7,881 nucleotides of DNA from a virus (lineage: Duplodnaviria > Heunggongvirae > Uroviricota > Caudoviricetes): the IMG/VR virus record IMGVR_UViG_2585427735_000015; one strand, written 5' to 3'. A model generated the notes under the pieces. The model had not been told where the DNA came from and did not search any database. It saw only the letters and a program-made list of their open reading frames with translations. Positions 1-7,881 of this stretch are shown in pieces. Each line of letters begins with the position of its first letter. Positions within the stretch are counted from its first letter, which is position 1. Both the position numbers and the translations under genes were made by a program.

Positions 1-2
1 TG

Positions 3-68
3 ACGTACCTGACAAACCTTTATTTCAAGATTAAAGAAGATAAGCGCAAGGCTGCGAGAGGTGAATAA
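3..68 (+). CDS. Holin C-terminus (pinholin S21-like), 5'-partial at window edge
   Basis: Frame ending in TAA at 66-68 reads ...[21 protein letters not shown], a charged C-terminal tail resembling the phage 21 pinholin as I recall it. The stop overlaps the endolysin ATG (TAATG), typical holin-endolysin coupling. Only 21 codons are visible. Confidence 0.5.
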
Positions 69-565
69 TGCCTCCATCATTACGAAAAGTCGTTGCTGCT
101 GCTATTGGTGGCGGAGCAATTGCTATAGCATCAGTGTTAATCACTGGCCCAAGTGGTAACGATGGTCTGGAAGGTGTCAGCTACATACCATACAAAGATA
201 TTGTTGGTGTATGGACTGTATGTCACGGGCATACAGGAAAAGACATCATGCTCGGTAAAACGTATACCAAAGCAGAATGCAAAACACTCTTGAATAAAGA
301 CCTTGCCACGGTCGCCAGACAAATTAACCCGTACATCAAAGTCGATATACCGGAAACAACGCGCGGCGCTCTTTACTCATTCGTTTACAACGTGGGTGCT
401 GGCAATTTCAGAACATCGACGCTTCTTCGCAAAATAAACCAGGGCGATATCAAAGGCGCATGTGATCAGCTACGTCGCTGGACATATGCTGGCGGTAAGC
501 AATGGAAAGGTCTCATGACTCGTCGTGAGATTGAGCGTGAAATCTGTTTGTGGGGTCAGCAATGA
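68..565 (+). CDS. R: SAR endolysin (phage lysozyme, T4-lysozyme-like fold; phage 21 R / RrrD-type)
   Basis: 165-aa ORF with an N-terminal Gly/Ala-rich weakly hydrophobic segment ([20 protein letters not shown]) typical of a signal-anchor-release domain. E35, D44 and T50 sit at the catalytic-triad positions of R21-type lysozymes. Near-identical by recall to P21 R and the E. coli prophage lysozymes RrrD/RrrQ. Confidence 0.93.
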
Positions 566-1026
566 ACAGAGTAACCGCGATTATCTCCGCTCTGGTTATC
601 TGCATCGTCGTCTGCCTGTCATGGGGTGTTAATCATTACCGTGATAACGCCATCGCCTACAAAGAACAGCGCGACAAAAATGCCAGAGAACTGAAGCTGG
701 CGAACGCGGCAATTACTGACATGCAGATGCGTCAGCGTGATGTTGCTGCGCTCGATGCAAAATACACGAAGGAGTTAGCTGATGCGAAAGCTGAAAATGA
801 TGTTCTGCGTGATGATGTTGCCGCTGGTCGTCGTCGGTTGCACATCAAAGCAGTCTGTCAGTCAGTGCGTGAAGCCACCACCGCCTCCGGCGTGGATAAT
901 GCAGCCTCCCCCCGACTGGCAGACACCGCTGAACGGGATTATTTCACCCTCCGGGAACGACTGGTAATGATGCAGGCCCAACTTGAAGGTGCTCAGCAAT
1001 ACATAACCGAGCAGTGTTTAAAGTAA
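562..1026 (+). CDS. Rz: Rz i-spanin (inner-membrane spanin subunit)
   Basis: ATG at 562 overlaps the endolysin stop (ATGA). N-terminal transmembrane helix ([20 protein letters not shown]) followed by a long charged, predicted coiled-coil periplasmic domain. Position immediately after the endolysin and the embedded Rz1 gene match the lambda Rz architecture. The ORF track's GTG at 550 is a less likely start. Confidence 0.9.
782..967 (+). CDS. Rz1: Rz1 o-spanin (outer-membrane lipoprotein), embedded in +1 frame inside Rz
   Basis: 61-aa ORF wholly inside Rz in another frame. Signal peptide with lipobox (LVVVGC), then a proline-rich mature region ([27 protein letters not shown]), close to lambda Rz1 / K-12 RzoR as I recall them. 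Confidence 0.9.
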
Positions 1027-1097
1027 AATCTTAACTACAATATGATTCATTTTGATGATTGTTTCATAAGGAACAGTGAAGTAAGATCTAAGAGGAG

Positions 1098-1146
1098 TTA
1101 AATTTTATACAGTATAATCATAATATTGCAGCAAGGTGGTTATAAT
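1098..1146 (+). promoter_or_regulatory. Possible sigma70-type promoter elements upstream of trkG (weak)
   Basis: AT-rich intergenic region with exact TATAAT hexamers at 1113-1118 and 1141-1146 and a TTGCAG at 1126-1131, but no -35/-10 pair with canonical 16-18 bp spacing. Based on hexamer matches only. Confidence 0.25.
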
Positions 1147-1163
1147 TGAAAGAATATTTAGAT

Positions 1164-2621
1164 ATGAATACATCTCATGTAAGAGTTGTTACTCATATGT
1201 GTGGGTTCCTGGTTTGGCTCTATAGTCTTTCAATGTTGCCACCAATGGTTGTAGCATTGTTTTATAAAGAAAAAAGCCTGTTCGTTTTCTTTATAACTTT
1301 CGTTATATTTTTTTGCATTGGTGGCGGAGCGTGGTATACAACTAAGAAATCTGGCATTCAATTACGTACCCGTGATGGGTTTATTATAATTGTAATGTTT
1401 TGGATTTTGTTTTCTGTTATTAGTGCATTCCCTTTATGGATTGACTCAGAACTTAATTTAACGTTCATTGATGCTCTGTTTGAAGGGGTTTCTGGAATAA
1501 CAACAACAGGAGCAACTGTAATTGATGATGTTAGTTCATTACCTCGGGCATATTTGTACTATCGGTCACAGTTAAATTTTATAGGTGGTTTAGGAGTTAT
1601 TGTTCTGGCGGTTGCTGTATTGCCATTATTGGGTATTGGTGGTGCAAAGCTTTATCAGTCAGAAATGCCGGGGCCATTTAAGGATGACAAACTCACTCCC
1701 CGCCTGGCCGATACGTCACGGACACTGTGGATAACTTATTCTTTATTAGGTATTGCTTGTATTGTCTGTTATAGACTTGCAGGAATGCCTTTGTTTGATG
1801 CTATTTGTCACGGGATTTCCACAGTTTCGCTTGGTGGTTTCTCAACTCATAGCGAGAGTATCGGATATTTTAATAACTATTTGGTTGAGCTGGTGGCTGG
1901 TTCTTTTTCCCTGCTATCGGCTTTCAACTTCACTCTTTGGTATATTGTTATTAGCAGGAAAACGATAAAACCTTTAATCAGAGATATTGAACTTCGTTTC
2001 TTTCTGTTAATAGCCTTAGGGGTGATCATTGTTACCTCTTTCCAGGTCTGGCATATAGGTATGTATGACTTGCATGGAAGTTTTATTCATTCGTTTTTTC
2101 TTGCCAGCTCCATGCTCACTGATAATGGTTTAGCTACGCAGGATTATGCAAGTTGGCCCACGCACACGATAGTGTTTTTGCTGTTGTCAAGTTTCTTTGG
2201 GGGATGTATAGGTTCAACTTGTGGTGGAATTAAGTCACTTCGATTTCTTATACTTTTCAAACAAAGCAAACACGAGATAAATCAGCTTTCTCATCCCAGA
2301 GCGTTGTTGAGTGTAAATGTAGGAGGGAAGATAGTTACAGATCGTGTAATGAGGTCTGTATGGAGTTTCTTTTTTCTTTATACTCTCTTCACGGTGTTTT
2401 TTATACTGGTGTTAAATGGTATGGGATATGATTTTCTTACATCATTTGCAACAGTGGCTGCATGTATTAATAATATGGGATTAGGTTTTGGGGCTACTGC
2501 ATCGTCATTCGGAGTGCTTAATGACATTGCAAAATGTTTAATGTGCATAGCTATGATTCTTGGTCGCCTTGAAATTTATCCTGTTATTATATTGTTTTCA
2601 GGTTTTTTTTGGCGCTCCTAA
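1164..2621 (+). CDS. trkG: TrkG, Trk-system K+ uptake membrane protein (TrkH/TrkG family)
   Basis: 485-aa polytopic membrane protein starting MNTSHVRVVTHMCGFLVWLY at ATG 1164, which I recognise as E. coli TrkG, the Rac-prophage-encoded TrkH paralogue. Contains repeated pore-loop-like glycine motifs (GITTTGAT, GGFSTH, GLATQDYASW, NNMGLG). Strongly AT-rich compared with flanking phage genes. The ORF track's 1146 start is a TTG 6 codons upstream and less likely. Confidence 0.93.
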   Translation: MNTSHVRVVTHMCGFLVWLYSLSMLPPMVVALFYKEKSLFVFFITFVIFFCIGGGAWYTTKKSGIQLRTRDGFIIIVMFWILFSVISAFPLWIDSELNLTFIDALFEGVSGITTTGATVIDDVSSLPRAYLYYRSQLNFIGGLGVIVLAVAVLPLLGIGGAKLYQSEMPGPFKDDKLTPRLADTSRTLWITYSLLGIACIVCYRLAGMPLFDAICHGISTVSLGGFSTHSESIGYFNNYLVELVAGSFSLLSAFNFTLWYIVISRKTIKPLIRDIELRFFLLIALGVIIVTSFQVWHIGMYDLHGSFIHSFFLASSMLTDNGLATQDYASWPTHTIVFLLLSSFFGGCIGSTCGGIKSLRFLILFKQSKHEINQLSHPRALLSVNVGGKIVTDRVMRSVWSFFFLYTLFTVFFILVLNGMGYDFLTSFATVAACINNMGLGFGATASSFGVLNDIAKCLMCIAMILGRLEIYPVIILFSGFFWRS

Positions 2622-2707
2622 TATATGGCTGATTTATAATTGTGAGTTTAATATTATGTTGACTCACTCATTGATCCAATACCTAACTTTACCAGCAACC
2701 CCTCCGT

Positions 2708-2742
2708 CCCCAGTAGCACTGGCTGCTGGGGTGCGTTTTATT
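2708..2742 (+). terminator. Rho-independent terminator-like hairpin downstream of trkG
   Basis: GC-rich inverted repeat CCCCAGTAGC (2708-2717) / GCTGCTGGGG (2722-2731), 10-bp stem with one mismatch and a 4-nt loop, followed by TGCGTTTTATT. Lies in the trkG-ynaK intergenic region, 17 nt before the next start codon. Confidence 0.5.
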
Positions 2743-2758
2743 CATAAAGCAAGGCTGT

Positions 2759-3550
2759 ATGAGCGAGAAATTAAAGATAGTCTATCGCCCATTACAAGAA
2801 TTGTCACCGTATGCGCACAACGCCAGGACGCACAGCCCTGAGCAGGTGGCACAACTGGTAGAAAGTATTAAGCAATTCGGCTGGACTAATCCGGTGCTGA
2901 TTGACGAAAAGGGCGAAATTATTGCGGGTCACGGTCGTGTTATGGCGGCTGAAATGCTCAAAATGGATTCTGTTCCGGTCATTGTTCTGTCTGGCCTGAC
3001 GGATGAGCAGAAAAAGGCGTACCGCCTGGCAGATAATCGCCTGCCGATGAATGCTGGCTGGGATGAAGATCTGTTGCGGATGGAGCTGTCGGACCTAATC
3101 AATGCTGATTTTGATGTCTCCCTGACAGGCTTCATCCCGACAGAAATTGATGAACTGTTGACGGATGTTTTGCCCGGTACAGGAAATGAGGAGGAGCCGT
3201 ATACGACGAAAATTGATACGCCTGTTTATGAGCCGTCGGGCGGTAAACCGGATATCAGTGAACTGTACGACGATACGAAAACTCAGGAGCTGATCAGCCG
3301 GATACGTTCGGCGTCCCTTGAGCCTGATATTGAGAAATTCCTCCTGTGTGCGGCAGAACGTCACACGGTGTTTAATTTCAGCAGAATTGCGGACTATTAC
3401 GCTCACGCCCCCTCTGAAATTCAGTGTTTTTTCGAGGAGTCGGCGCTGGTGATCATTGATTATCAGCAGGCTATTGAAAATGGATTTGTCCGGATGACGC
3501 AGCGCATGGTGGAGATCATGCATGGTGGTGAGGAGGAGGAATATGCGTGA
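2759..3550 (+). CDS. ynaK: ParB/Srx-like nuclease-domain protein (YnaK-like)
   Basis: 263-aa ORF. The N-terminal ~90 aa carry the ParB N-terminal domain signature (LSPYAHNARTHSPEQVAQLVESIKQFGWTNPVLID...IIAGHGRVMAA, an arginine motif analogous to ParB GERRxRA). The C-terminal ~170 aa are of unknown function and end in an acidic tail (GGEEEEYA). Gene order trkG then ParB-like matches K-12 Rac (trkG-ynaK-ydaY); the symbol is assigned by synteny and recall. Confidence 0.8.
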   Translation: MSEKLKIVYRPLQELSPYAHNARTHSPEQVAQLVESIKQFGWTNPVLIDEKGEIIAGHGRVMAAEMLKMDSVPVIVLSGLTDEQKKAYRLADNRLPMNAGWDEDLLRMELSDLINADFDVSLTGFIPTEIDELLTDVLPGTGNEEEPYTTKIDTPVYEPSGGKPDISELYDDTKTQELISRIRSASLEPDIEKFLLCAAERHTVFNFSRIADYYAHAPSEIQCFFEESALVIIDYQQAIENGFVRMTQRMVEIMHGGEEEEYA

Positions 3551-4475
3551 TGATTTTTGCGCCTTTATTCTGACTCACGGGCGACCGGACAAAGTTCTGA
3601 CTTACCGGACGTTGCGTCGTGCTGGCTATACCGGGAAAATTTTTATCGTTGTTGATGATGAAGATAAGACACGGAATCAGTACATGGCTGAATTTGGTGA
3701 ACAGGTGCTGGTGTTTTCCAAAGCCGATATCGCCAGTCGTTTTGACGAAGCCGATAATTTCTGTGACCGCCGCTCAATTTTTTACGCCCGTAATGCCTGT
3801 TTCGACCTGGCAAAACTGGTCGGGTGTAAATACTTCATTCAGCTCGATGATGATTATCACGAGTTCCAGTTTCGGGTGGATCGCAACTATGACCAGGCCT
3901 ATTTTCCGATAAGGAAACTGGATGCGATCCTTTCTGAAATGCTGGCGTACTACGAATCAATACCTGCTCTTTCCATCGCTATGTCGCAGGGCGGGGATTT
4001 TCTTGGTGACAATGGCGGCCATGCTTCGTGGGTGAAACGCAAGGCAATGAACAGCTTTATCTGTTCGGTTGATCGACCGTTCTCATTCATGGGGCGCATT
4101 AACGAGGATGTGAATACGTACACGAATCTCGGTCGCTGTGGTGAATTGTTTATGACGATCGGTGCTGTCCAGTTAGGGCAGAAACAGACGCAGAAAAACA
4201 GCGGCGGAATGACCGAGCTGTATCTGGATTCCGGAACCTACGTTAAAAGTTTTTACTCCGTCATGTATGCGCCGTCGTGCGTAAAAATCTCACTGATGGG
4301 TGCCAGCCATAAACGCATTCACCATCAGGTCACCTGGAACAACGCTGCAGTAAAAATCCTTCACGAAAAATACAGGAAGAAGACACCCTGCATATCAATG
4401 GGGGTGACAAATGATTCCGTATTCGAAAGTCGAGTCTCTGGCAGCGTGCCGGATGACTGCACAACAAATCGCTGA
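3543..4475 (+). CDS. ydaY: YdaY-like protein with GT-A (nucleotide-diphospho-sugar transferase)-like motifs; function unknown
   Basis: ATG at 3543 is preceded by GGAGGAGGA (a strong SD, 5-6 nt spacer) and overlaps the ynaK stop (ATGCGTGA). Contains CAFILTHGRPD...KIFIVVDDEDK and ARNACFDLAKLVGCKYFIQLDDDY, which resemble the first beta-strand/DD and ARNxG...DxD motifs of GT-A fold glycosyltransferases. The ORF track's ATG at 3522 lies inside the SD and is less likely. Confidence 0.7.
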   Translation: MRDDFCAFILTHGRPDKVLTYRTLRRAGYTGKIFIVVDDEDKTRNQYMAEFGEQVLVFSKADIASRFDEADNFCDRRSIFYARNACFDLAKLVGCKYFIQLDDDYHEFQFRVDRNYDQAYFPIRKLDAILSEMLAYYESIPALSIAMSQGGDFLGDNGGHASWVKRKAMNSFICSVDRPFSFMGRINEDVNTYTNLGRCGELFMTIGAVQLGQKQTQKNSGGMTELYLDSGTYVKSFYSVMYAPSCVKISLMGASHKRIHHQVTWNNAAVKILHEKYRKKTPCISMGVTNDSVFESRVSGSVPDDCTTNR

Positions 4476-4662
4476 CGTTCTGGATGTTGATCTGAACCGA
4501 CTGAAAGAAAATCGGGAAGCAATGACAGATTTTTATGCGGCCATCCGTAAGGGCAGAGCGAAAGGTGAAGCCGAGTTACGAGCGGCATTGTTTAAGCTTG
4601 CCAGAAAAGGGGATGCCTTTGCTCTGCGCGAACTACTCAGGGTGGATAAAAATCAGGACTAA
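4411..4662 (+). CDS. Small hypothetical protein, helical and charged, possible HTH DNA-binding protein
   Basis: 83-aa ORF preceded by GGGGTGA (4401-4407). Overlaps the 3' end of the ydaY-like gene by 65 nt in another frame; an internal ATG at 4453 (MTAQQIADVL...) would cut the overlap to 23 nt. The sequence TAQQIADVLDVDLNRL looks HTH-like. Ends 3 nt before the terS ATG. Confidence 0.45.
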   Translation: MIPYSKVESLAACRMTAQQIADVLDVDLNRLKENREAMTDFYAAIRKGRAKGEAELRAALFKLARKGDAFALRELLRVDKNQD

Positions 4663-4665
4663 CTG

Positions 4666-5760
4666 ATGAGCAGACCGGACTGGGGGGCGTTGCAGCAGGA
4701 GTATATTGCTGAATACACCCGCTCCGGTATATCTCCGGTGGCATGGTGTGAAGCAAGGGGACTGAATTACGCAACAGCCCGTCGTTACATCAAAAAAACT
4801 CCGAAAAATGCGCAGACAGAAATGTGCAAAACTGCGCAAAAAAGTGCGCAGAAAAAATCTGCGCAGACTGCACAAAAGCGGAACGAAAAATCTCAGGAAA
4901 AAAAGCCAGTATTCGATGCGGGCCTGAATGAGGGCGACGCGGAGGAATTTTCGTTCTGTCCCGATGAATTCGGCATTTCTGACCAGCAGGCTAAGTTTGC
5001 GATGCTTGTTGCTCAGGGTAAAAAGCCGACAGAGGCGTACCGACTAGCCGGTTATGAGGGGCAAGGTGCGACAGCTAACAGCAACGCCAGTCGTATGCTT
5101 AGAAATGCCAGGGTTTTTCGCGCTATCAGCTACTTCCGCAATCAGTACCAGAAACGCTATACCGCAGACCTGGATTTACTAGTGAGTCAGTTGATGGCTA
5201 TTGTCCTGGCCGACCCCAATCAGCTTGCACAATTTCGCCGTGTTAACTGCCGTTATTGCTGGGGCGAGAATCATCTCTACCAGTGGCGCGATATAGCAGA
5301 ATTCGACAAGGCAGCGGCGCAGGCTTCCAGAGATGGCAAACCCGAACCGGAATATGGAGGCCTCGGCTTTGTTGATAACGCCATACCCAATCCGGACTGC
5401 CCGAAGTGCTGCGGTGAGGGAACGGGACAGCTTTATATGGCTGATACCACTCTGCTTGATGGGGATGCGCGGCAATTATATGCAGGGGCAAAATTCGGAA
5501 AATTCGGCGTTGAGATCCTGCTGGAGGATAAGGCTGCCGCCCGGCGTGAATTGTTGCGTTTGTTTTCTGCTGGCGGGGCTTTATGTGCAGATAAACGGCT
5601 ACAGGAACTGGAAATTGAACGGCGCAGAATGGAAAACCAGAAGCTGCGCAAAGAGATCGAAACGGTGGAAGATAATGAACATCCCCAGCCTGTGGCGATC
5701 AATATTAATGTGGTTGATGCCAGAGTAAGGAGTGATGAAGATGATCTCTCCGACGCTTAA
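4666..5760 (+). CDS. Terminase small subunit (TerS), extended form
   Basis: 364-aa ORF with AGGA SD 7 nt upstream. N-terminal HTH-like region (ISPVAWCEARGLNYATARRYIKK) and a segment (GISDQQAKFAMLVAQGKKPTEAYRLAGYEG...ANSNASRMLRNARV) matching the small-terminase family signature as I recall it. Sits directly upstream of, and overlaps, the large-terminase gene. Carries an unusual Lys/Gln-rich repeat linker and a CxxC...CxxCC motif. Confidence 0.8.
   Translation: MSRPDWGALQQEYIAEYTRSGISPVAWCEARGLNYATARRYIKKTPKNAQTEMCKTAQKSAQKKSAQTAQKRNEKSQEKKPVFDAGLNEGDAEEFSFCPDEFGISDQQAKFAMLVAQGKKPTEAYRLAGYEGQGATANSNASRMLRNARVFRAISYFRNQYQKRYTADLDLLVSQLMAIVLADPNQLAQFRRVNCRYCWGENHLYQWRDIAEFDKAAAQASRDGKPEPEYGGLGFVDNAIPNPDCPKCCGEGTGQLYMADTTLLDGDARQLYAGAKFGKFGVEILLEDKAAARRELLRLFSAGGALCADKRLQELEIERRRMENQKLRKEIETVEDNEHPQPVAININVVDARVRSDEDDLSDA
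4808..4876 (+). repeat. Degenerate tandem TGCGCA(G/A)A repeats inside terS
   Basis: Six spaced copies of (A/C/G)TG(C/T)GCA(G/A)A at about 4808, 4823, 4832, 4844, 4859 and 4868, spaced 9-15 bp apart. They encode the AQK/SAQ-rich peptide NAQTEMCKTAQKSAQKKSAQTAQKR. Confidence 0.45.
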
Positions 5761-6496
5761 TGTGCCTCAGGCGCGATTTCTTTCAATGCCCCATAAATTT
5801 AAAGCCTATATTGCTGGTTTTGGCTCGGGCAAAACATGGGTTGGGTGTGGCGGCATATGCAAGGGGATTTGGGAGCATCCAGGTATAAATCAGGGATATT
5901 TTGCGCCAACGTATCCCCAAATTCGCGATATTTTTTACCCTACAGTGGAAGAAGTTGCTGCTGACTGGGGATTGAACGTAAAAATTAATGAGGGAAATAA
6001 AGAGGTTCACTTTTATTACGGACGCCAGTATCGGGGAACCACTATCTGCAGATCGATGGAGAAGCCACAAACGATCGTCGGTTTCAAAATTGGTAATGCG
6101 TTGGTGGATGAACTGGACATTTTGCCGAAGGAAAAAGCCAGAACGGCGTGGCGCAAGATAATTGCACGTATGCGTTATAAGATTGATGGACTTCGCAACG
6201 GTATTGACGTTACAACCACGCCGGAAGGATTCAAATTTGTCTACGAGCAGTTTGTTAAAGCCGTGCGTGAAAAAACAGAGCTGGCCTCACTGTATGGTCT
6301 GGTGCAGGCATCTACTTTCGATAATGAAAAGAACCTGCCAGCAGATTACATTCCTTCGCTTCTTGAATCATACCCTCCAGAGCTGATTAAAGCCTATCTT
6401 CGAGGACAGTTTACTAACCTGACAAGTGGTACTGTTTACCATCAGTTTGACCGGAAACTGAATAATTGCGAAGAAGTGGAGCAGCCAGGGGAGTAA
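5741..6496 (+). pseudogene. Terminase large subunit (TerL), N-terminal ATPase fragment truncated by IS4 insertion
   Basis: Start ATG 5741 is preceded by TAAGGAG (5726-5732, 8-nt spacer). Walker A (AGFGSGKT) and Walker B-like (ALVDELD) motifs typical of the TerL ATPase domain. The ORF stops after ~250 codons at a TAA that coincides with the first bases of the IS4 left end, whereas typical TerL is 450-650 aa and the nuclease domain is missing. Confidence 0.8.
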
Positions 6497-6542
6497 TGCC
6501 GATCAGTTAAGGATCAGTTGACCGATCCAGTGGCTGTGTAAG

Positions 6543-6577
6543 AATCCGGAAACGCTCACTTGTTTCCGGATTTTTTT
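6543..6577 (+). terminator. Perfect 11-bp stem-loop plus T7 tract in the IS4 left end, immediately upstream of the transposase ATG
   Basis: AATCCGGAAAC (6543-6553) and GTTTCCGGATT (6562-6572) are exact reverse complements with an 8-nt loop, followed by a T-run through 6577 and then ATG at 6578. No SD is apparent outside the stem. Confidence 0.55.
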
Positions 6578-7881
6578 ATGCACATTGGACAGGCTCTTGA
6601 TCTGGTATCCCGTTACGATTCTCTGCGTAACCCACTGACTTCTCTGGGGGATTACCTCGACCCCGAACTCATCTCTCGTTGCCTTGCCGAATCAGGTACT
6701 GTAACGCTACGCAAGCGCCGTCTTCCCCTCGAAATGATGGTCTGGTGTATTGTTGGCATGGCGCTTGAGCGTAAAGAACCTCTTCACCAGATTGTGAATC
6801 GCCTGGACATCATGTTGCCGGGCAATCGCCCCTTCGTTGCCCCCAGTGCCGTTATTCAGGCCCGCCAGCGCCTGGGAAGTGAGGCTGTCCGCCGCGTGTT
6901 CACGAAAACAGCGCAGCTCTGGCATAACGCCACGCCGCATCCGCACTGGTGCGGCCTGACCCTGCTGGCCATCGATGGTGTGTTCTGGCGCACACCGGAT
7001 ACACCAGAGAACGATGCAGCCTTCCCCCGCCAGACACATGCCGGGAACCCGGCGCTCTACCCGCAGGTCAAAATGGTCTGCCAGATGGAACTGACCAGCC
7101 ATCTGCTGACGGCTGCAGCCTTCGGCACGATGAAGAACAGCGAAAATGAGCTTGCTGAGCAACTTATAGAACAAACCGGCGATAACACTCTGACGTTAAT
7201 GGATAAAGGTTATTACTCACTGGGACTGTTAAATGCCTGGAGCCTGGCGGGAGAACACCGCCACTGGATGATACCTCTCAGAAAGGGAGCGCAATATGAA
7301 GAGATCAGAAAACTGGGTAAAGGCGATCATCTGGTGAAGCTGAAAACCAGCCCGCAGGCACGAAAAAAGTGGCCGGGACTGGGAAATGAAGTGACTGCCC
7401 GCCTGCTGACCGTGACGCGCAAAGGAAAAGTCTGCCATCTGCTGACGTCGATGACGGACGCCATGCGCTTCCCCGGAGGAGAAATGGGGGATCTGTACAG
7501 TCATCGCTGGGAAATCGAACTGGGATACAGGGAGATAAAACAGACGATGCAACGGAGCAGGCTGACGCTGAGAAGTAAAAAGCCGGAGCTTGTGGAGCAA
7601 GAGCTGTGGGGTGTCTTACTGGCTTATAATCTGGTGAGATATCAGATGATTAAAATGGCGGAACATCTGAAAGGTTACTGGCCGAATCAACTGAGTTTCT
7701 CAGAATCATGCGGAATGGTGATGAGAATGCTGATGACATTGCAGGGCGCTTCACCGGGACGTATACCGGAGCTGATGCGCGATCTTGCAAGTATGGGACA
7801 ACTTGTGAAATTACCGACAAGAAGGGAAAGGGCCTTCCCGAGAGTGGTAAAGGAGAGGCCCTGGAAATACCCCACAGCCCC
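6578..7881 (+). CDS. insG: IS4 transposase InsG (DDE family with YREK signature), 3'-partial at window edge
   Basis: Open frame from ATG 6578 to the window end (~434 codons, no stop), so absent from the supplied ORF track. Translation [36 protein letters not shown]... matches IS4 InsG as I recall it, with DDE-like residues in [19 protein letters not shown] and [13 protein letters not shown]. Confidence 0.9.

What the first reader, a model, noticed from the sequence alone, without database searches (positions are those of the whole stretch)
2759..4475. Translationally coupled ParB/Srx-like and GT-A-like gene pair in the lysis-packaging moron slot
Two genes (YnaK-like 2759-3550, YdaY-like 3543-4475) overlap by 8 nt (ATGCGTGA), and the YdaY SD (GGAGGAGGA) doubles as the codons for YnaK's acidic tail (EEEE). 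YnaK has a ParB N-terminal domain, which in characterised proteins binds DNA and/or nucleotides, fused to an unassigned ~170-aa C-terminal region. YdaY shows GT-A-like motifs (IFIVVDDEDK; ARNAC...KYFIQLDDDY), suggesting an NDP-sugar or nucleotide-dependent transferase. Such a pair is not needed for lysis or packaging and sits where lambdoid phages carry accessory cargo. As inference, it could be a DNA- or nucleotide-directed modification module, or a defence/anti-defence or superinfection-exclusion system. I know of no characterised function for this pair.
Basis: partly seen in the sequence, partly recalled or inferred. Interest (0 to 1): 0.75.

Follow-up and report, generated by a model that had tools for sequence, protein, structure and literature searches.

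The report
Paired phage sugar-transferase next to terminase
Two overlapping genes of a common E. coli prophage encode a sugar-adding enzyme, from a family known to decorate phage DNA, and a dedicated ParB-like helper; hundreds of unrelated phages keep this pair just before their DNA-packaging genes, but what it modifies is unknown.

Summary
The sequence features are real. ORFs 2759-3550 and 3543-4475 overlap by ATGCGTGA, and GGAGGAGGA precedes the second start. The name "YdaY-like" is wrong: true YdaY is an unrelated tail-region protein that abuts ynaK in K-12 only because of a deletion. Gene 2 is a GT-A glycosyltransferase of Pfam TAGT (PF20691, E 8e-35), the family of the T2/T6 enzyme that adds a second glucose to DNA. 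Gene 1 has a ParB/Srx nucleotide-binding domain, a disordered linker with an invariant YTxKIxxPxYEP motif, an acidic helical C-domain with no Pfam or PDB match, and an acidic tail. The two genes are always together: 44 of 45 genome loci, the 45th being cut by its contig end, and 77/77 viral loci, spanning many bacterial phyla and a haloarchaeal virus. Their ends overlap in 107/110 adjacent pairs, and a terminase gene almost always follows. One Vibrio phage keeps only the C-domain next to the enzyme. Here trkG is the moron; the pair is phage backbone. I found no hydroxymethyl-pyrimidine pathway, so the acceptor is unknown. Best reading: a late-expressed two-subunit DNA glycosyltransferase acting before packaging, analogous to ParB-dependent phage thymine dioxygenases. 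This is a new variant of a known kind, uncharacterised and readily testable.

The parts
2708..2731 (+). Terminator-like hairpin (10-bp stem, 7 G-C pairs, followed by TGCGTTTTAT) between trkG and the pair. It closes the trkG moron. The pair starts 28 nt downstream with no promoter-like site in between.
   Evidence: GC step from 37-40% (trkG) to 48-50% (pair)
2759..3550 (+). YnaK-type partner protein, 263 aa, pI 4.5, net charge -25. It consists of a ParB/Srx-fold N-domain, a helical extension, a disordered linker, a conserved acidic C-domain and an acidic tail.
2759..3058 (+). ParB/Srx (ParB-CTPase fold) N-terminal domain, about aa 1-100. N21 (NxR), G57 (GxxR box; AGHGR here) and N93 (DN) are invariant. 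No HTH DNA-binding domain follows.
3200..3235 (+). Motif Y148-T-T-K-I-D-T-P-V-Y-E-P159 (family consensus YTxKIxxPxYEP) inside a linker predicted to be disordered (aa 137-167, pLDDT below 50). Y148, P155 and Y157 are invariant and K151 is at least 90% conserved across 36 sequences from several phyla.
   Evidence: also present in the stand-alone C-domain protein of Vibrio phage pv27
3260..3520 (+). Conserved acidic helical C-domain (aa 168-254). It has no Pfam or PDB match and is the invariable companion of this TAGT clade. Invariant residues: L195, R201, F205, A211, Y214, E226, I232, D234, A238.
3521..3547 (+). Acidic C-terminal tail (MHGGEEEEYA). A D/E-rich tail is a family feature: 29 of 36 homologues have at least 4 D/E in the last 12 residues, including sequences from Bacteroidota. 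It is therefore not only a by-product of the SD sequence.
3531..3539 (+). Shine-Dalgarno-like GGAGGAGGA for the glycosyltransferase gene, embedded in the tail codons of YnaK.
3543..3550 (+). 8-nt start/stop overlap, ATGCGTGA. An overlapping junction is found in 107 of 110 directly adjacent pairs in related loci (-11 nt in 44, -8 in 41, -4 in 13).
3543..4475 (+). TAGT-family GT-A glycosyltransferase, 310 aa (RefSeq WP_001204037.1, annotated 'hypothetical protein'). Motifs: G13-R14; D38..D41 (3654-3665); D102-D103-D104-Y105 (3846-3857); N187-E-D189-V (4101-4112); R258/H260/H261/W265. The last ~25 aa are an enterobacterial extension that is not conserved elsewhere.
4453..4662 (+). Small ORF overlapping the 3' end of the glycosyltransferase gene. 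The RefSeq start corresponds to window 4453; the longest ORF starts at 4411. It matches part of a small-terminase PHROG and is the first gene of the packaging block.
4666..5760 (+). Terminase small subunit. It is context, not part of the pair, but its adjacency to the pair is conserved.
5732..6496 (+). N-terminal part of the terminase large subunit. It is cut off by an IS4 insertion that begins at about 6472-6494, so this prophage copy cannot package DNA.

Best explanation
The two genes encode the two subunits of one enzyme system carried in the backbone of the phage. The catalytic subunit is a TAGT-family GT-A glycosyltransferase. The non-catalytic partner is YnaK. Its conserved linker motif and acidic C-domain bind or regulate the transferase, and its ParB/Srx nucleotide-binding N-domain acts as a nucleotide-dependent switch or clamp that engages the complex with double-stranded DNA. 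The overlapping stop and start give coupled, roughly equimolar synthesis. In this lambdoid prophage the pair is transcribed only with the late operon, by read-through of the trkG terminator, together with the terminase genes. The complex would therefore glycosylate replicated phage DNA just before or while it is packaged, and the injected genome would be shielded from restriction or other nucleic-acid-targeting defences in the next host. The sugar donor is a host nucleotide-sugar in E. coli. Some relatives bring their own phosphatase-nucleotidyltransferase gene. The acceptor group on DNA is unknown, because no hydroxymethyl-pyrimidine-forming enzyme accompanies the pair. Shown: family, fold and motif conservation; strict pairing; overlap; position next to terminase; absence of a detectable precursor pathway. 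Inferred: physical complex, late expression, DNA as the acceptor, and a protective role.
For: (2) The pairing is obligate. Starting from the glycosyltransferase, 44 of 45 genome loci have a YnaK homologue immediately upstream, and the 45th is cut by the contig end. Starting from YnaK, all 77 viral loci with room downstream have the glycosyltransferase, 64 of them adjacent. No other gene cluster occurs in more than 12 of the 45 loci.
(3) The junction overlaps in 107 of 110 adjacent pairs.
(4) The C-domain is the core partner. Vibrio phage pv27 has a stand-alone C-domain (HMM E 8e-49) directly upstream of its TAGT and no ParB domain. The C-domain family, 1189 clusters at 50% identity, occurs almost only as ParB-N plus C-domain proteins of 240-300 aa.
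(5) There is a precedent. ParB-like proteins with a nucleotide-binding domain, a linker and a C-terminal domain, but no DNA-binding domain, are required by phage thymine dioxygenases specifically on dsDNA (PMC13229309). ParB-methyltransferase fusions are enriched in prophages (PMC12704722; phrog_498).
(6) Position. The first large ORF downstream is a terminase subunit in about 72 of 77 non-redundant loci, my estimate from overlapping family counts, spanning at least five terminase families. In Lactobacillus phage c5 the pair is the first two genes after cos. The same layout occurs in Porphyromonas, Nocardia and haloarchaeal viruses.
(7) Fifteen viral loci add a nucleotidyltransferase: 14 carry a His-phosphatase/RfaE-domain-II-like fusion gene after the YnaK gene (13 of them shown to lie between the pair), and one has a stand-alone domain just after the glycosyltransferase. 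This fits supply of an activated donor.
(8) In the window there is a terminator-like hairpin and no promoter-like site upstream of the pair, and its GC matches the backbone.
Against: No thymidylate-synthase-like hydroxymethylase or TET/JBP dioxygenase was found in the intact E. coli prophage, in the complete 31.8-kb genome of phage c5, or around 131 loci. The hydroxyl acceptor used by every characterised family member is therefore missing, and no chemistry is known for glycosylating unmodified DNA. YnaK is strongly acidic (pI 4.5) and has no DNA-binding domain. The catalytic Glu of the ParB GERR box is His here (AGHGR), and the box varies in the family, so CTP-clamp behaviour is unproven. A TAGT relative in animals, GREB1, is reported to glycosylate a protein (my recollection, not checked here). 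Position next to terminase could simply mean 'first genes of the late operon'. No complex prediction or experiment was possible, and the C-terminal half of the glycosyltransferase model has low confidence. My TET/JBP test was indirect: annotation, Pfam scans of selected ORFs and a top-25 family census.
Confidence: 0.5

Rival explanations
1. The transferase glycosylates a protein made at the same time, such as a capsid, portal, tail or terminase protein. Virion protein glycosylation is known in some mycobacteriophages (my recollection, not checked here). YnaK would act as an adaptor or chaperone.
Against: The downstream structural modules belong to unrelated families: at least five terminase types and several portal families. 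No common protein acceptor is apparent, yet the transferase keeps 43-100% identity. In Vibrio phage pv27 the pair sits among replication genes (primase, exonuclease, helicase) and not among structural genes. Family membership and the ParB partner both point to nucleic acid.
Confidence: 0.13
2. YnaK is itself the acceptor. The transferase glycosylates the invariant Tyr/Thr of the YTxKIxxPxYEP motif, in the manner of glycogenin or glycocin systems, and the glycoprotein then does something else.
For: The invariant hydroxyl-bearing residues Y148 and Y157, plus T/S149, sit in a linker predicted to be disordered. The motif travels with the C-domain even when the ParB domain is absent. GT-A enzymes with an adjacent peptide substrate exist, for example SunS.
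Against: Stop/start overlap in 107 of 110 pairs suggests subunits made in fixed proportion, not an enzyme and its substrate. An invariant linear motif is equally expected for a docking peptide. This reading gives no role to the ParB domain or to the terminase adjacency.
Confidence: 0.1
3. The acceptor is a small molecule, a nucleotide or RNA, for example a defence signalling nucleotide or a modified tRNA base. The pair would be an anti-defence enzyme unrelated to genome modification, and the ParB/Srx domain would work as an NTP-using enzyme, as Srx and SerK do.
Against: No PADLOC hit and no known anti-defence family hit. Late-operon placement next to terminase is unusual for early-acting anti-defence genes. 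The motifs of DNA-acting relatives are conserved.
Confidence: 0.1
4. This is the first reader's alternative: a moron expressed from the lysogen for defence or superinfection exclusion.
For: It lies next to the trkG moron. The related SE11 prophage also carries a GmrSD type IV restriction gene.
Against: The pair has backbone-like GC, no promoter-like site, and a terminator-like hairpin just upstream. It also occurs in Lactobacillus delbrueckii phage c5, whose 31.8-kb genome has no annotated integrase or CI-type repressor (only a Cro-like repressor and an anti-repressor), at the same position. It is always tied to the terminase genes. There is no PADLOC hit for the transferase.
Confidence: 0.05
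5. The pair is a decaying remnant of a former dioxygenase-ParB-glycosyltransferase pathway and no longer has a function.
For: The expected precursor enzyme is absent. This particular prophage is defective because IS4 interrupts terL.
Against: At least 97% conservation of 47 positions, including the active-site residues, across 112 sequences from several phyla and an archaeal virus. Both reading frames are intact in 867 complete E. coli genomes. The sequence is identical to that of intact prophages.
Confidence: 0.02

Closest known systems
T2/T6 beta-glucosyl-HMC-alpha-glucosyltransferase, the founding characterised TAGT (PF20691)
   Same: Same Pfam family and same PHROG (phrog_842, E 1e-103), with the GT-A fold and DxD-type motifs. 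It is a phage enzyme that acts post-replicatively on DNA (PMC13216743, PMC13390438).
   Different: The T-even enzyme extends a glucose already placed on 5-hydroxymethylcytosine, so it needs dCMP hydroxymethylase and an alpha-glucosyltransferase. None of these is present here. tblastn did not reach T2/T6 at all. The nearest T4-like relative found, Aeromonas phage 65, is only about 23% identical and has no YnaK C-domain next to it or fused to it. The NAR 2026 paper lists 'solitary' TAGTs in 288 of 753 phage genomes as functionally undefined.
ParB-dependent phage thymine dioxygenases: 5mYOX176 with ParB176 (O'Toole et al., PNAS 2026, PMC13229309)
   Same: A small phage ParB-like protein with a nucleotide-binding domain, a short helical segment, a disordered linker and a C-terminal domain, but no DNA-binding domain. 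It is encoded beside a DNA-modifying enzyme, often near terminase, and is needed for activity on dsDNA. YnaK has the same layout.
   Different: The partner enzyme here is a glycosyltransferase and not a dioxygenase. In that study the ParB-dependent dioxygenases go with amino-acid/kinase-type thymine hypermodification, while glycosyltransferases go with the ParB-independent class. ParB176 is 194 aa against 263 aa here. I could not test whether the C-terminal domains are homologous, because the sequences are not held.
Metavirome GT-A DNA glycosyltransferases acting on 5hmC, and the trypanosome base-J glucosyltransferase (Pyle et al. 2024; bioRxiv 2023.12.21.572611)
   Different: Those enzymes sit in clusters with a C5-methyltransferase plus TET, or with a thymidylate-synthase homologue, which make the hydroxymethyl acceptor. 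That paper set aside the roughly 65% of glycosyltransferase contigs lacking such a neighbour as less obviously DNA-modifying. The present pair belongs to that unexplained majority.
ParB-N-methyltransferase fusion proteins of prophages (Kaljevic et al., PNAS 2025, PMC12704722; phrog_498; PADLOC MTase_II)
   Same: The YnaK N-domain matches the ParB part of these fusions at E 1e-50 (phrog_498) and 2e-38 (PADLOC). They are prophage-enriched, combining a ParB fold with a DNA-modifying activity.
   Different: Here the enzyme is a separate polypeptide recruited through a dedicated C-domain, and the chemistry is glycosyl transfer rather than methyl transfer.
Chromosome/plasmid partition ParB (Spo0J, Noc, KorB)
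   Same: The N-terminal domain fold and most nucleotide-contacting positions.
   Different: No HTH DNA-binding domain, no adjacent parA in the annotated loci examined, and an acidic protein. The 'partition protein' annotations in phage records are misleading.

Membership tests
TAGT, TET-associated glycosyltransferase (Pfam PF20691) | Sequence match above the curated Pfam threshold over the whole domain | tested here: met
   121.1 bits against a cutoff of 27.5, E 7.6e-35, residues 8-222 on profile positions 4-205 of 205; phrog_842 E 1e-103; best BFVD structural matches are TAGT-domain proteins, E 4e-22
TAGT, TET-associated glycosyltransferase (Pfam PF20691) | GT-A fold with Asp-rich metal/nucleotide-sugar motifs (R...DDD...ED) | tested here: met
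TAGT, TET-associated glycosyltransferase (Pfam PF20691) | Genomic association with a TET/JBP dioxygenase or another source of 5-hydroxymethyl-pyrimidine | tested here: not met
   None is annotated in the intact SE11 prophage. There is no Pfam hit in its DUF/unknown ORFs or in the unknown ORFs of phage c5. No ThyA-like tblastn hit was found in 131 loci totalling 1.6 Mb. TET_JBP is not among the 25 families listed (of 60 matched) for recurrent neighbour clusters. The TET test is indirect.
TAGT, TET-associated glycosyltransferase (Pfam PF20691) | Transfers a sugar to a DNA base or to a sugar already on DNA | not testable with these tools
   Needs biochemistry or LC-MS of DNA.
ParB/Srx N-terminal domain (ParB-CTPase fold, PF02195) | Sequence and fold of the ParB N-terminal domain | tested here: met
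ParB/Srx N-terminal domain (ParB-CTPase fold, PF02195) | Intact nucleotide-binding and hydrolysis motifs (box I Q/NxR, box II GERR, box III N) | tested here: inconclusive
   N21/R23, G57 and N93 are conserved. Box II is AGHGR here (Glu replaced by His) and varies in the family (GGNMR, AGNGV, GGERR). Nucleotide binding cannot be predicted from sequence (PMC12704722).
Partition ParB (ParABS systems) | Central HTH DNA-binding domain, ParA-interaction motif, adjacent parA | tested here: not met
   TIGR00180 scores 38.5 against a cutoff of 58.45, and only on the N-domain. No HTH or ParB_C Pfam hit. The neighbours are trkG and terminase, and no parA is present.
ParB-like activators of phage DNA-modifying enzymes (5mYOX-associated ParB, PMC13229309) | Nucleotide-binding domain, linker and C-terminal domain, no DNA-binding domain, encoded beside the cognate enzyme | tested here: met
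   Model: N-domain with pLDDT about 88, helices 103-134, disordered 137-167, helical C-domain 168-254. The gene always lies directly upstream of the enzyme gene.
ParB-like activators of phage DNA-modifying enzymes (5mYOX-associated ParB, PMC13229309) | The cognate enzyme is a 5-methylpyrimidine dioxygenase | tested here: not met
   The cognate enzyme is a TAGT glycosyltransferase in all 121 loci examined.
ParB-like activators of phage DNA-modifying enzymes (5mYOX-associated ParB, PMC13229309) | The enzyme requires the partner for activity on dsDNA | not testable with these tools
   Needs co-expression or in vitro assays.
Lambdoid moron (accessory cargo) | Deviant composition, own promoter/terminator, patchy presence unrelated to the neighbouring module | tested here: not met
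   The pair has 48-50% GC, like the lysis and terminase genes. trkG has 37-40% and is followed by the hairpin at 2708-2731. The pair keeps its position beside terminase in unrelated phages.
YdaY (E. coli K-12 b1366) | Sequence similarity to K-12/RefSeq YdaY | tested here: not met
   BLASTP finds no alignment at E up to 100. YdaY maps between the tail tube and tape-measure genes in the intact prophage. The K-12 adjacency results from a deletion.

The most novel reading that the evidence does not exclude
The YnaK-TAGT complex places a sugar directly on ordinary or merely host-methylated DNA, on a base or on the backbone, without any hydroxymethyl-pyrimidine precursor. The ParB-like subunit would open or present the duplex. 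That would be a DNA glycosylation chemistry not yet described. It would be carried by prophages in roughly one in six complete E. coli genomes and by phages of Bacteroidota, Firmicutes, Actinobacteria and haloarchaea.
Probability: 0.2. Interest if true: 0.9.

Novelty: new variant of a known kind. Interest (0 to 1): 0.6.

Why it matters
Phage DNA glycosylation is understood only where a hydroxymethylated base is made first. Recent surveys flag large numbers of 'solitary' phage glycosyltransferases with no such pathway as unexplained: 288 of 753 phage genomes, and about 65% of glycosyltransferase-bearing contigs. This finding gives one large clade of them a defined anatomy: an obligate partner protein with a previously undescribed C-domain, coupled translation, and a fixed place before the terminase genes. 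It also provides a tractable E. coli example. If the target is DNA, very common E. coli prophages and many gut Bacteroidota and Firmicutes phages would carry an unrecognised genome modification. That would bear on restriction evasion, on type IV restriction enzymes such as GmrSD, on sequencing artefacts and on phage engineering. It would also extend the recently discovered role of ParB-like proteins as activators of DNA-modifying enzymes from dioxygenases to glycosyltransferases. If the target is not DNA, the TAGT family is functionally broader than its name implies.

Tried and rejected
- YdaY identity for gene 2: rejected.
- ATG 3522 as the start of gene 2: rejected in favour of 3543, from the conserved N-terminus.
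- Moron status of the pair: rejected from composition, the promoter/terminator scan and the conserved position.
- Defence-system membership: PADLOC gave nothing for the transferase, and its only hit for YnaK was to the ParB part of methyltransferase fusions.
- Rosetta-stone fusions of the C-domain with the transferase: none seen. The long hits are tandem ParB domains or low-complexity tails. Aeromonas phage 65 has a different N-terminal extension.
- Search for a precursor pathway: nothing found, but the TET test is indirect because the alignment-mode Pfam census prints only 25 families.
- Sequences of the published 5mYOX-associated ParBs were not available in the held supplements, so homology of the C-domains could not be tested.
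- The Iyer et al. 2013 paper that defined TAGT is not held. I recall that it links ParB to DNA-modification genes, and Burke et al. cite it for that idea.
- The afdb50 fold library was unavailable.
- Complex prediction could not be run.
Full report
**Where the window comes from.** The window is the late region of a Rac-like lambdoid prophage of E. coli. Bases 1-6493 are 100% identical to E. coli SE11 and many other strains. The gene order is:
- lysozyme (68-565)
- Rz/Rz1
- trkG (1146-2621)
- the two genes of the finding (2759-3550 and 3543-4475)
- a small ORF (4453-4662)
- terminase small subunit (4666-5760)
- the first 254 codons of the terminase large subunit, which an IS4 element then interrupts

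**Checking the observation.**
- Both ORFs exist at the stated coordinates.
- The second ORF has in-frame ATGs at 3522 and 3543. The N-terminus MRDDFCAF, produced from 3543, is conserved in all 20 aligned homologues, so 3543 is the start.
- The YnaK stop is TGA at 3548-3550, which gives the 8-nt overlap ATGCGTGA.
- GGAGGAGGA (3531-3539) sits at Shine-Dalgarno distance and also encodes the glutamates of the tail HGGEEEEYA.
- The one factual error is the name. RefSeq YdaY is a 119-aa protein encoded between the tail tube and tape-measure genes of the intact prophage. It shows no similarity to the 3543-4475 product. In K-12 a deletion removed everything from codon 88 of ynaK to ydaY and made the two neighbours.

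**What the second protein is.**
- It matches Pfam PF20691, the TET-associated glycosyltransferase (TAGT) family, at 121 bits against a threshold of 27.5.
- It falls in the same PHROG as the beta-glucosyl-HMC-alpha-glucosyltransferase of T2/T6 (E 1e-103). That enzyme adds a second glucose to glucosyl-hydroxymethylcytosine in DNA (PMC13216743 and PMC13390438).
- In 112 non-identical relatives at 43-100% identity, 47 positions are at least 97% conserved. They include G13-R14, D38, D41, D103-D104-Y105, N187 and D189. This corresponds to the R...DDD...ED signature reported for phage DNA glycosyltransferases and for the trypanosome base-J glucosyltransferase (bioRxiv 2023.12.21.572611).

**What the first protein is.**
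- There is no helix-turn-helix domain and no parA neighbour, so this is not a partition protein.
- The remainder resolves into helices 103-134, a linker predicted to be disordered (137-167), a helical domain (168-254) and an acidic tail.
- An alignment of 36 homologues from several phyla (29-64% identical) shows invariant N21, G57 and N93 in the N-domain. It also shows an invariant Y148/P155/Y157 motif (YTxKIxxPxYEP) in the linker, and invariant L195, R201, F205, A211, Y214, E226, I232, D234 and A238 in the C-domain.
- The C-domain has no Pfam, NCBIfam or PDB match.
- The protein is very acidic: pI 4.5, net charge -25. The C-domain has pI 4.1-5.2 across the family, while the transferase is mildly basic.
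- The D/E-rich tail is kept in 29 of 36 homologues, including those from Bacteroidota. It is therefore a protein feature that in E. coli also serves as the ribosome-binding site.

**The pair is a unit.**
- A scan of one genome per species with the transferase profile returned 45 loci. They came from Enterobacteriaceae, Bacteroidota, Clostridia, Veillonella, Desulfovibrionaceae, Chlorobia, Acidobacteriota, Saccharibacteria and others.
- In 44 of the 45 the gene immediately upstream encodes a YnaK homologue. The 45th is cut by the contig end. Every full-length homologue has both the ParB domain and the C-domain.
- The reverse scan of viral contigs with the YnaK profile matched at least 578 contigs. 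Of the 77 retained loci with room downstream, all 77 carry the transferase, 64 of them directly adjacent.
- No other gene cluster is shared by more than 12 of the 45 genome loci.
- In 107 of 110 adjacent pairs the stop of the first gene overlaps the start of the second: -11 nt in 44, -8 in 41 and -4 in 13. Some of the -8 cases are near-identical enterobacterial copies.
- The C-domain family comprises about 1,189 clusters at 50% identity. Nearly all are proteins of 240-300 aa with the domain at the C-terminus.
- In Vibrio jumbo phage pv27 the gene directly upstream of the transferase is a 139-aa stand-alone linker-motif-plus-C-domain protein (HMM E 8e-49). No ParB domain lies within 6 kb. The C-domain is therefore the core partner and the ParB domain a usual but dispensable addition.
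- More distant T4-like TAGTs, such as that of Aeromonas phage 65, have no such partner.

**Position of the pair.**
- The first large ORF downstream of the transferase is a terminase subunit in about 72 of 77 non-redundant loci. This is my estimate from overlapping family counts. The terminase families include Terminase_3/6N, T7-like, lambda GpA, TerL_ATPase and Terminase_2.
- Upstream genes are ends of replication or recombination modules: SSB, VRR-NUC, PcfJ/K, SNF2-methylase and resolvases.
- In Lactobacillus phage c5 the order is cos, ParB-like, transferase, terS, terL.
- The same layout occurs in Porphyromonas and Nocardia phages, and in the haloarchaeal virus HHTV-2, where the pair lies about 3 kb upstream of terL.
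- In this window trkG is the compositional island (37-40% GC) and is followed by a terminator-like hairpin at 2708-2731. The pair has 48-50% GC, like the lysis and terminase genes, and no promoter-like site precedes it.
- The pair is therefore backbone and not cargo, and it is probably transcribed only with the late operon. Late-only transcription is an inference.

**A variant that bears on the donor.**
- In 13 viral loci a 318-aa gene lies between the two genes, and a fourteenth locus (L117) carries the start of the same gene after its YnaK gene before the contig ends.
- It fuses a histidine phosphatase (His_Phos_1, E 2e-39) to a cytidylyltransferase-like domain. That domain is nearest to RfaE domain II, the heptose-1-phosphate adenylyltransferase, and to TagD.
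- One further locus has the nucleotidyltransferase domain alone, just after the transferase.
- This fits supply of an activated donor and supports the transferase being catalytically active.

**What is missing.**
- All characterised relatives act on a hydroxymethyl-pyrimidine or on a sugar already attached to one.
- The intact SE11 prophage has no dioxygenase, no thymidylate-synthase homologue and no DNA methyltransferase among its annotated genes. Its DUF proteins show nothing of the kind in Pfam.
- The complete 31.8-kb genome of phage c5 has none either.
- tblastn with ThyA found nothing in 131 loci totalling 1.6 Mb.
- Recurrent neighbour clusters are portals, structural, lysis and replication proteins.
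- The TET/JBP test is indirect, and a very divergent dioxygenase cannot be excluded.
- The literature agrees that many such glycosyltransferases stand alone: 288 of 753 phage genomes and about 65% of glycosyltransferase-bearing contigs.

**Most likely mechanism (confidence about 0.5).**
- The pair is a two-subunit, late-expressed DNA glycosyltransferase. The TAGT subunit catalyses the transfer.
- YnaK binds it through the linker motif and C-domain. Through its ParB-type nucleotide-binding domain it couples the enzyme to duplex DNA, so that replicated genomes are modified before or during packaging.
- The closest precedent is experimental. Phage thymine dioxygenases of one subclass require a cognate ParB-like protein with the same domain layout and no DNA-binding domain, specifically on dsDNA (PMC13229309).
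- ParB-methyltransferase fusions, which the YnaK N-domain matches strongly, are enriched in prophages.
- The idea that ParB proteins direct modification enzymes to DNA during packaging is attributed to Iyer et al. 2013 by Burke et al.. I could not read the 2013 paper.
- Shown: family, fold, motifs, strict pairing, overlap, position and the absence of a detected precursor pathway.
- Inferred: the physical complex, the timing of expression, DNA as the acceptor and the protective role.
- The weakest point is the acceptor. No chemistry is known for glycosylating DNA that lacks a hydroxymethyl group.

**Rival explanations.**
- Glycosylation of a virion or packaging protein (0.13). The structural modules differ between hosts, and pv27 places the pair among replication genes.
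- YnaK as the acceptor, through its invariant tyrosines and threonine (0.10). This is plausible for the motif but gives the ParB domain no role.
- A small-molecule, nucleotide or RNA acceptor, with the ParB/Srx domain acting as an enzyme (0.10).
- A lysogen-expressed defence moron (0.05).
- A decaying remnant (0.02). The conservation argues against it.

**Novelty and interest.**
- The families are known, and ParB proteins near phage DNA-modification genes have been noted before.
- New, as far as the searchable literature shows, are four things: the strict two-gene unit; the previously undescribed partner domain, which can occur without ParB; the constant position before terminases of unrelated types; and the lack of any precursor pathway.
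- At least 80% of the 2-kb stretch spanning the pair (window 2700-4700) is present in 867 of 5,426 complete E. coli genomes, and 1,600 carry some part of it.
- I rate it a new variant of a known kind, with interest 0.6. The question is open and acknowledged in the field, and the E. coli pair makes it directly testable by co-expression and nucleoside mass spectrometry.

**Limits.** No complex prediction or experiment could be run. The C-terminal half of the transferase model is unreliable. The dioxygenase search was indirect. Gene calls in related loci are my own ORF-based calls.

Noticed in passing
window 6472-7881: An IS4-family element interrupts the terminase large-subunit gene after about codon 254. 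Identity to intact prophages ends at 6493. This prophage copy is therefore packaging-defective, although the ParB-like/glycosyltransferase pair is intact and identical to that of intact prophages.
   Followed up: partly
window 1146-2731: trkG is a clear low-GC island (37-40% against 46-52% in the flanks). A promoter-like site lies at 1017-1046 and a terminator-like hairpin at 2708-2731. trkG, and not the pair, is the moron between the lysis and packaging genes.
   Followed up: partly
window 4411-4662: A small ORF (83 aa from ATG 4411; RefSeq starts it at 4453) overlaps the non-conserved 25-aa C-terminal extension of the E. coli transferase. It matches only an internal segment of a small-terminase PHROG (phrog_309, E 8e-23). 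Its relation to the 364-aa small terminase that follows is unclear.
   Followed up: no
L001 7902-9584 (E. coli SE11 prophage, early region): The same Rac-like prophage in SE11 carries a full GmrSD-type (DUF262/DUF1524) type IV restriction enzyme. This family is known for cutting sugar-modified hydroxymethylcytosine DNA. Whether it tolerates the product of the prophage's own transferase is an open question.
   Followed up: no
L070 6731-7687 (also L065, L069, L074, L078, L081, L083, L084, L086, L087, L089, L092, L117, L120): A His-phosphatase/cytidylyltransferase-like fusion gene is inserted between the ParB-like gene and the transferase gene in a sub-clade of viral contigs. L077 has the nucleotidyltransferase domain alone just after the transferase. 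This probably makes a special activated donor.
   Followed up: partly
L127 5459-5878 (Vibrio phage pv27): A stand-alone linker-motif-plus-C-domain protein without a ParB domain lies directly upstream of the transferase. It sits among primase, exonuclease and helicase genes of a 191-kb phage and not next to terminase.
   Followed up: yes
L039 3587-4441 and 5268-6137 (Hyphomonadaceae MAG): Two TAGT paralogues lie in tandem downstream of one YnaK homologue. This may be a two-step glycosylation.
   Followed up: no
alignments A4 and A5; loci not identified: Among the neighbours of the pair, one locus has a C5-cytosine DNA methyltransferase as the first large ORF after the transferase. One recurrent neighbour cluster matches heat-labile enterotoxin A chain (E 2e-119). 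I did not trace which loci these are.
   Followed up: no
E. coli K-12 ynaK (L131 4378-4641): The K-12 gene is an 87-aa stump of the ParB domain. A 2026 overexpression screen reports that it raises MICs of six antibiotics 3- to 6-fold (PMC12924614). That phenotype concerns the fragment and not the intact pair.
   Followed up: partly
phage records: Public annotations call the partner 'chromosome (plasmid) partitioning protein' or 'ParB-like partition nuclease', and call the transferase 'beta-glucosyl-HMC-alpha-glucosyltransferase', even in phages with no hydroxymethylcytosine pathway. Both names over-interpret.
   Followed up: partly
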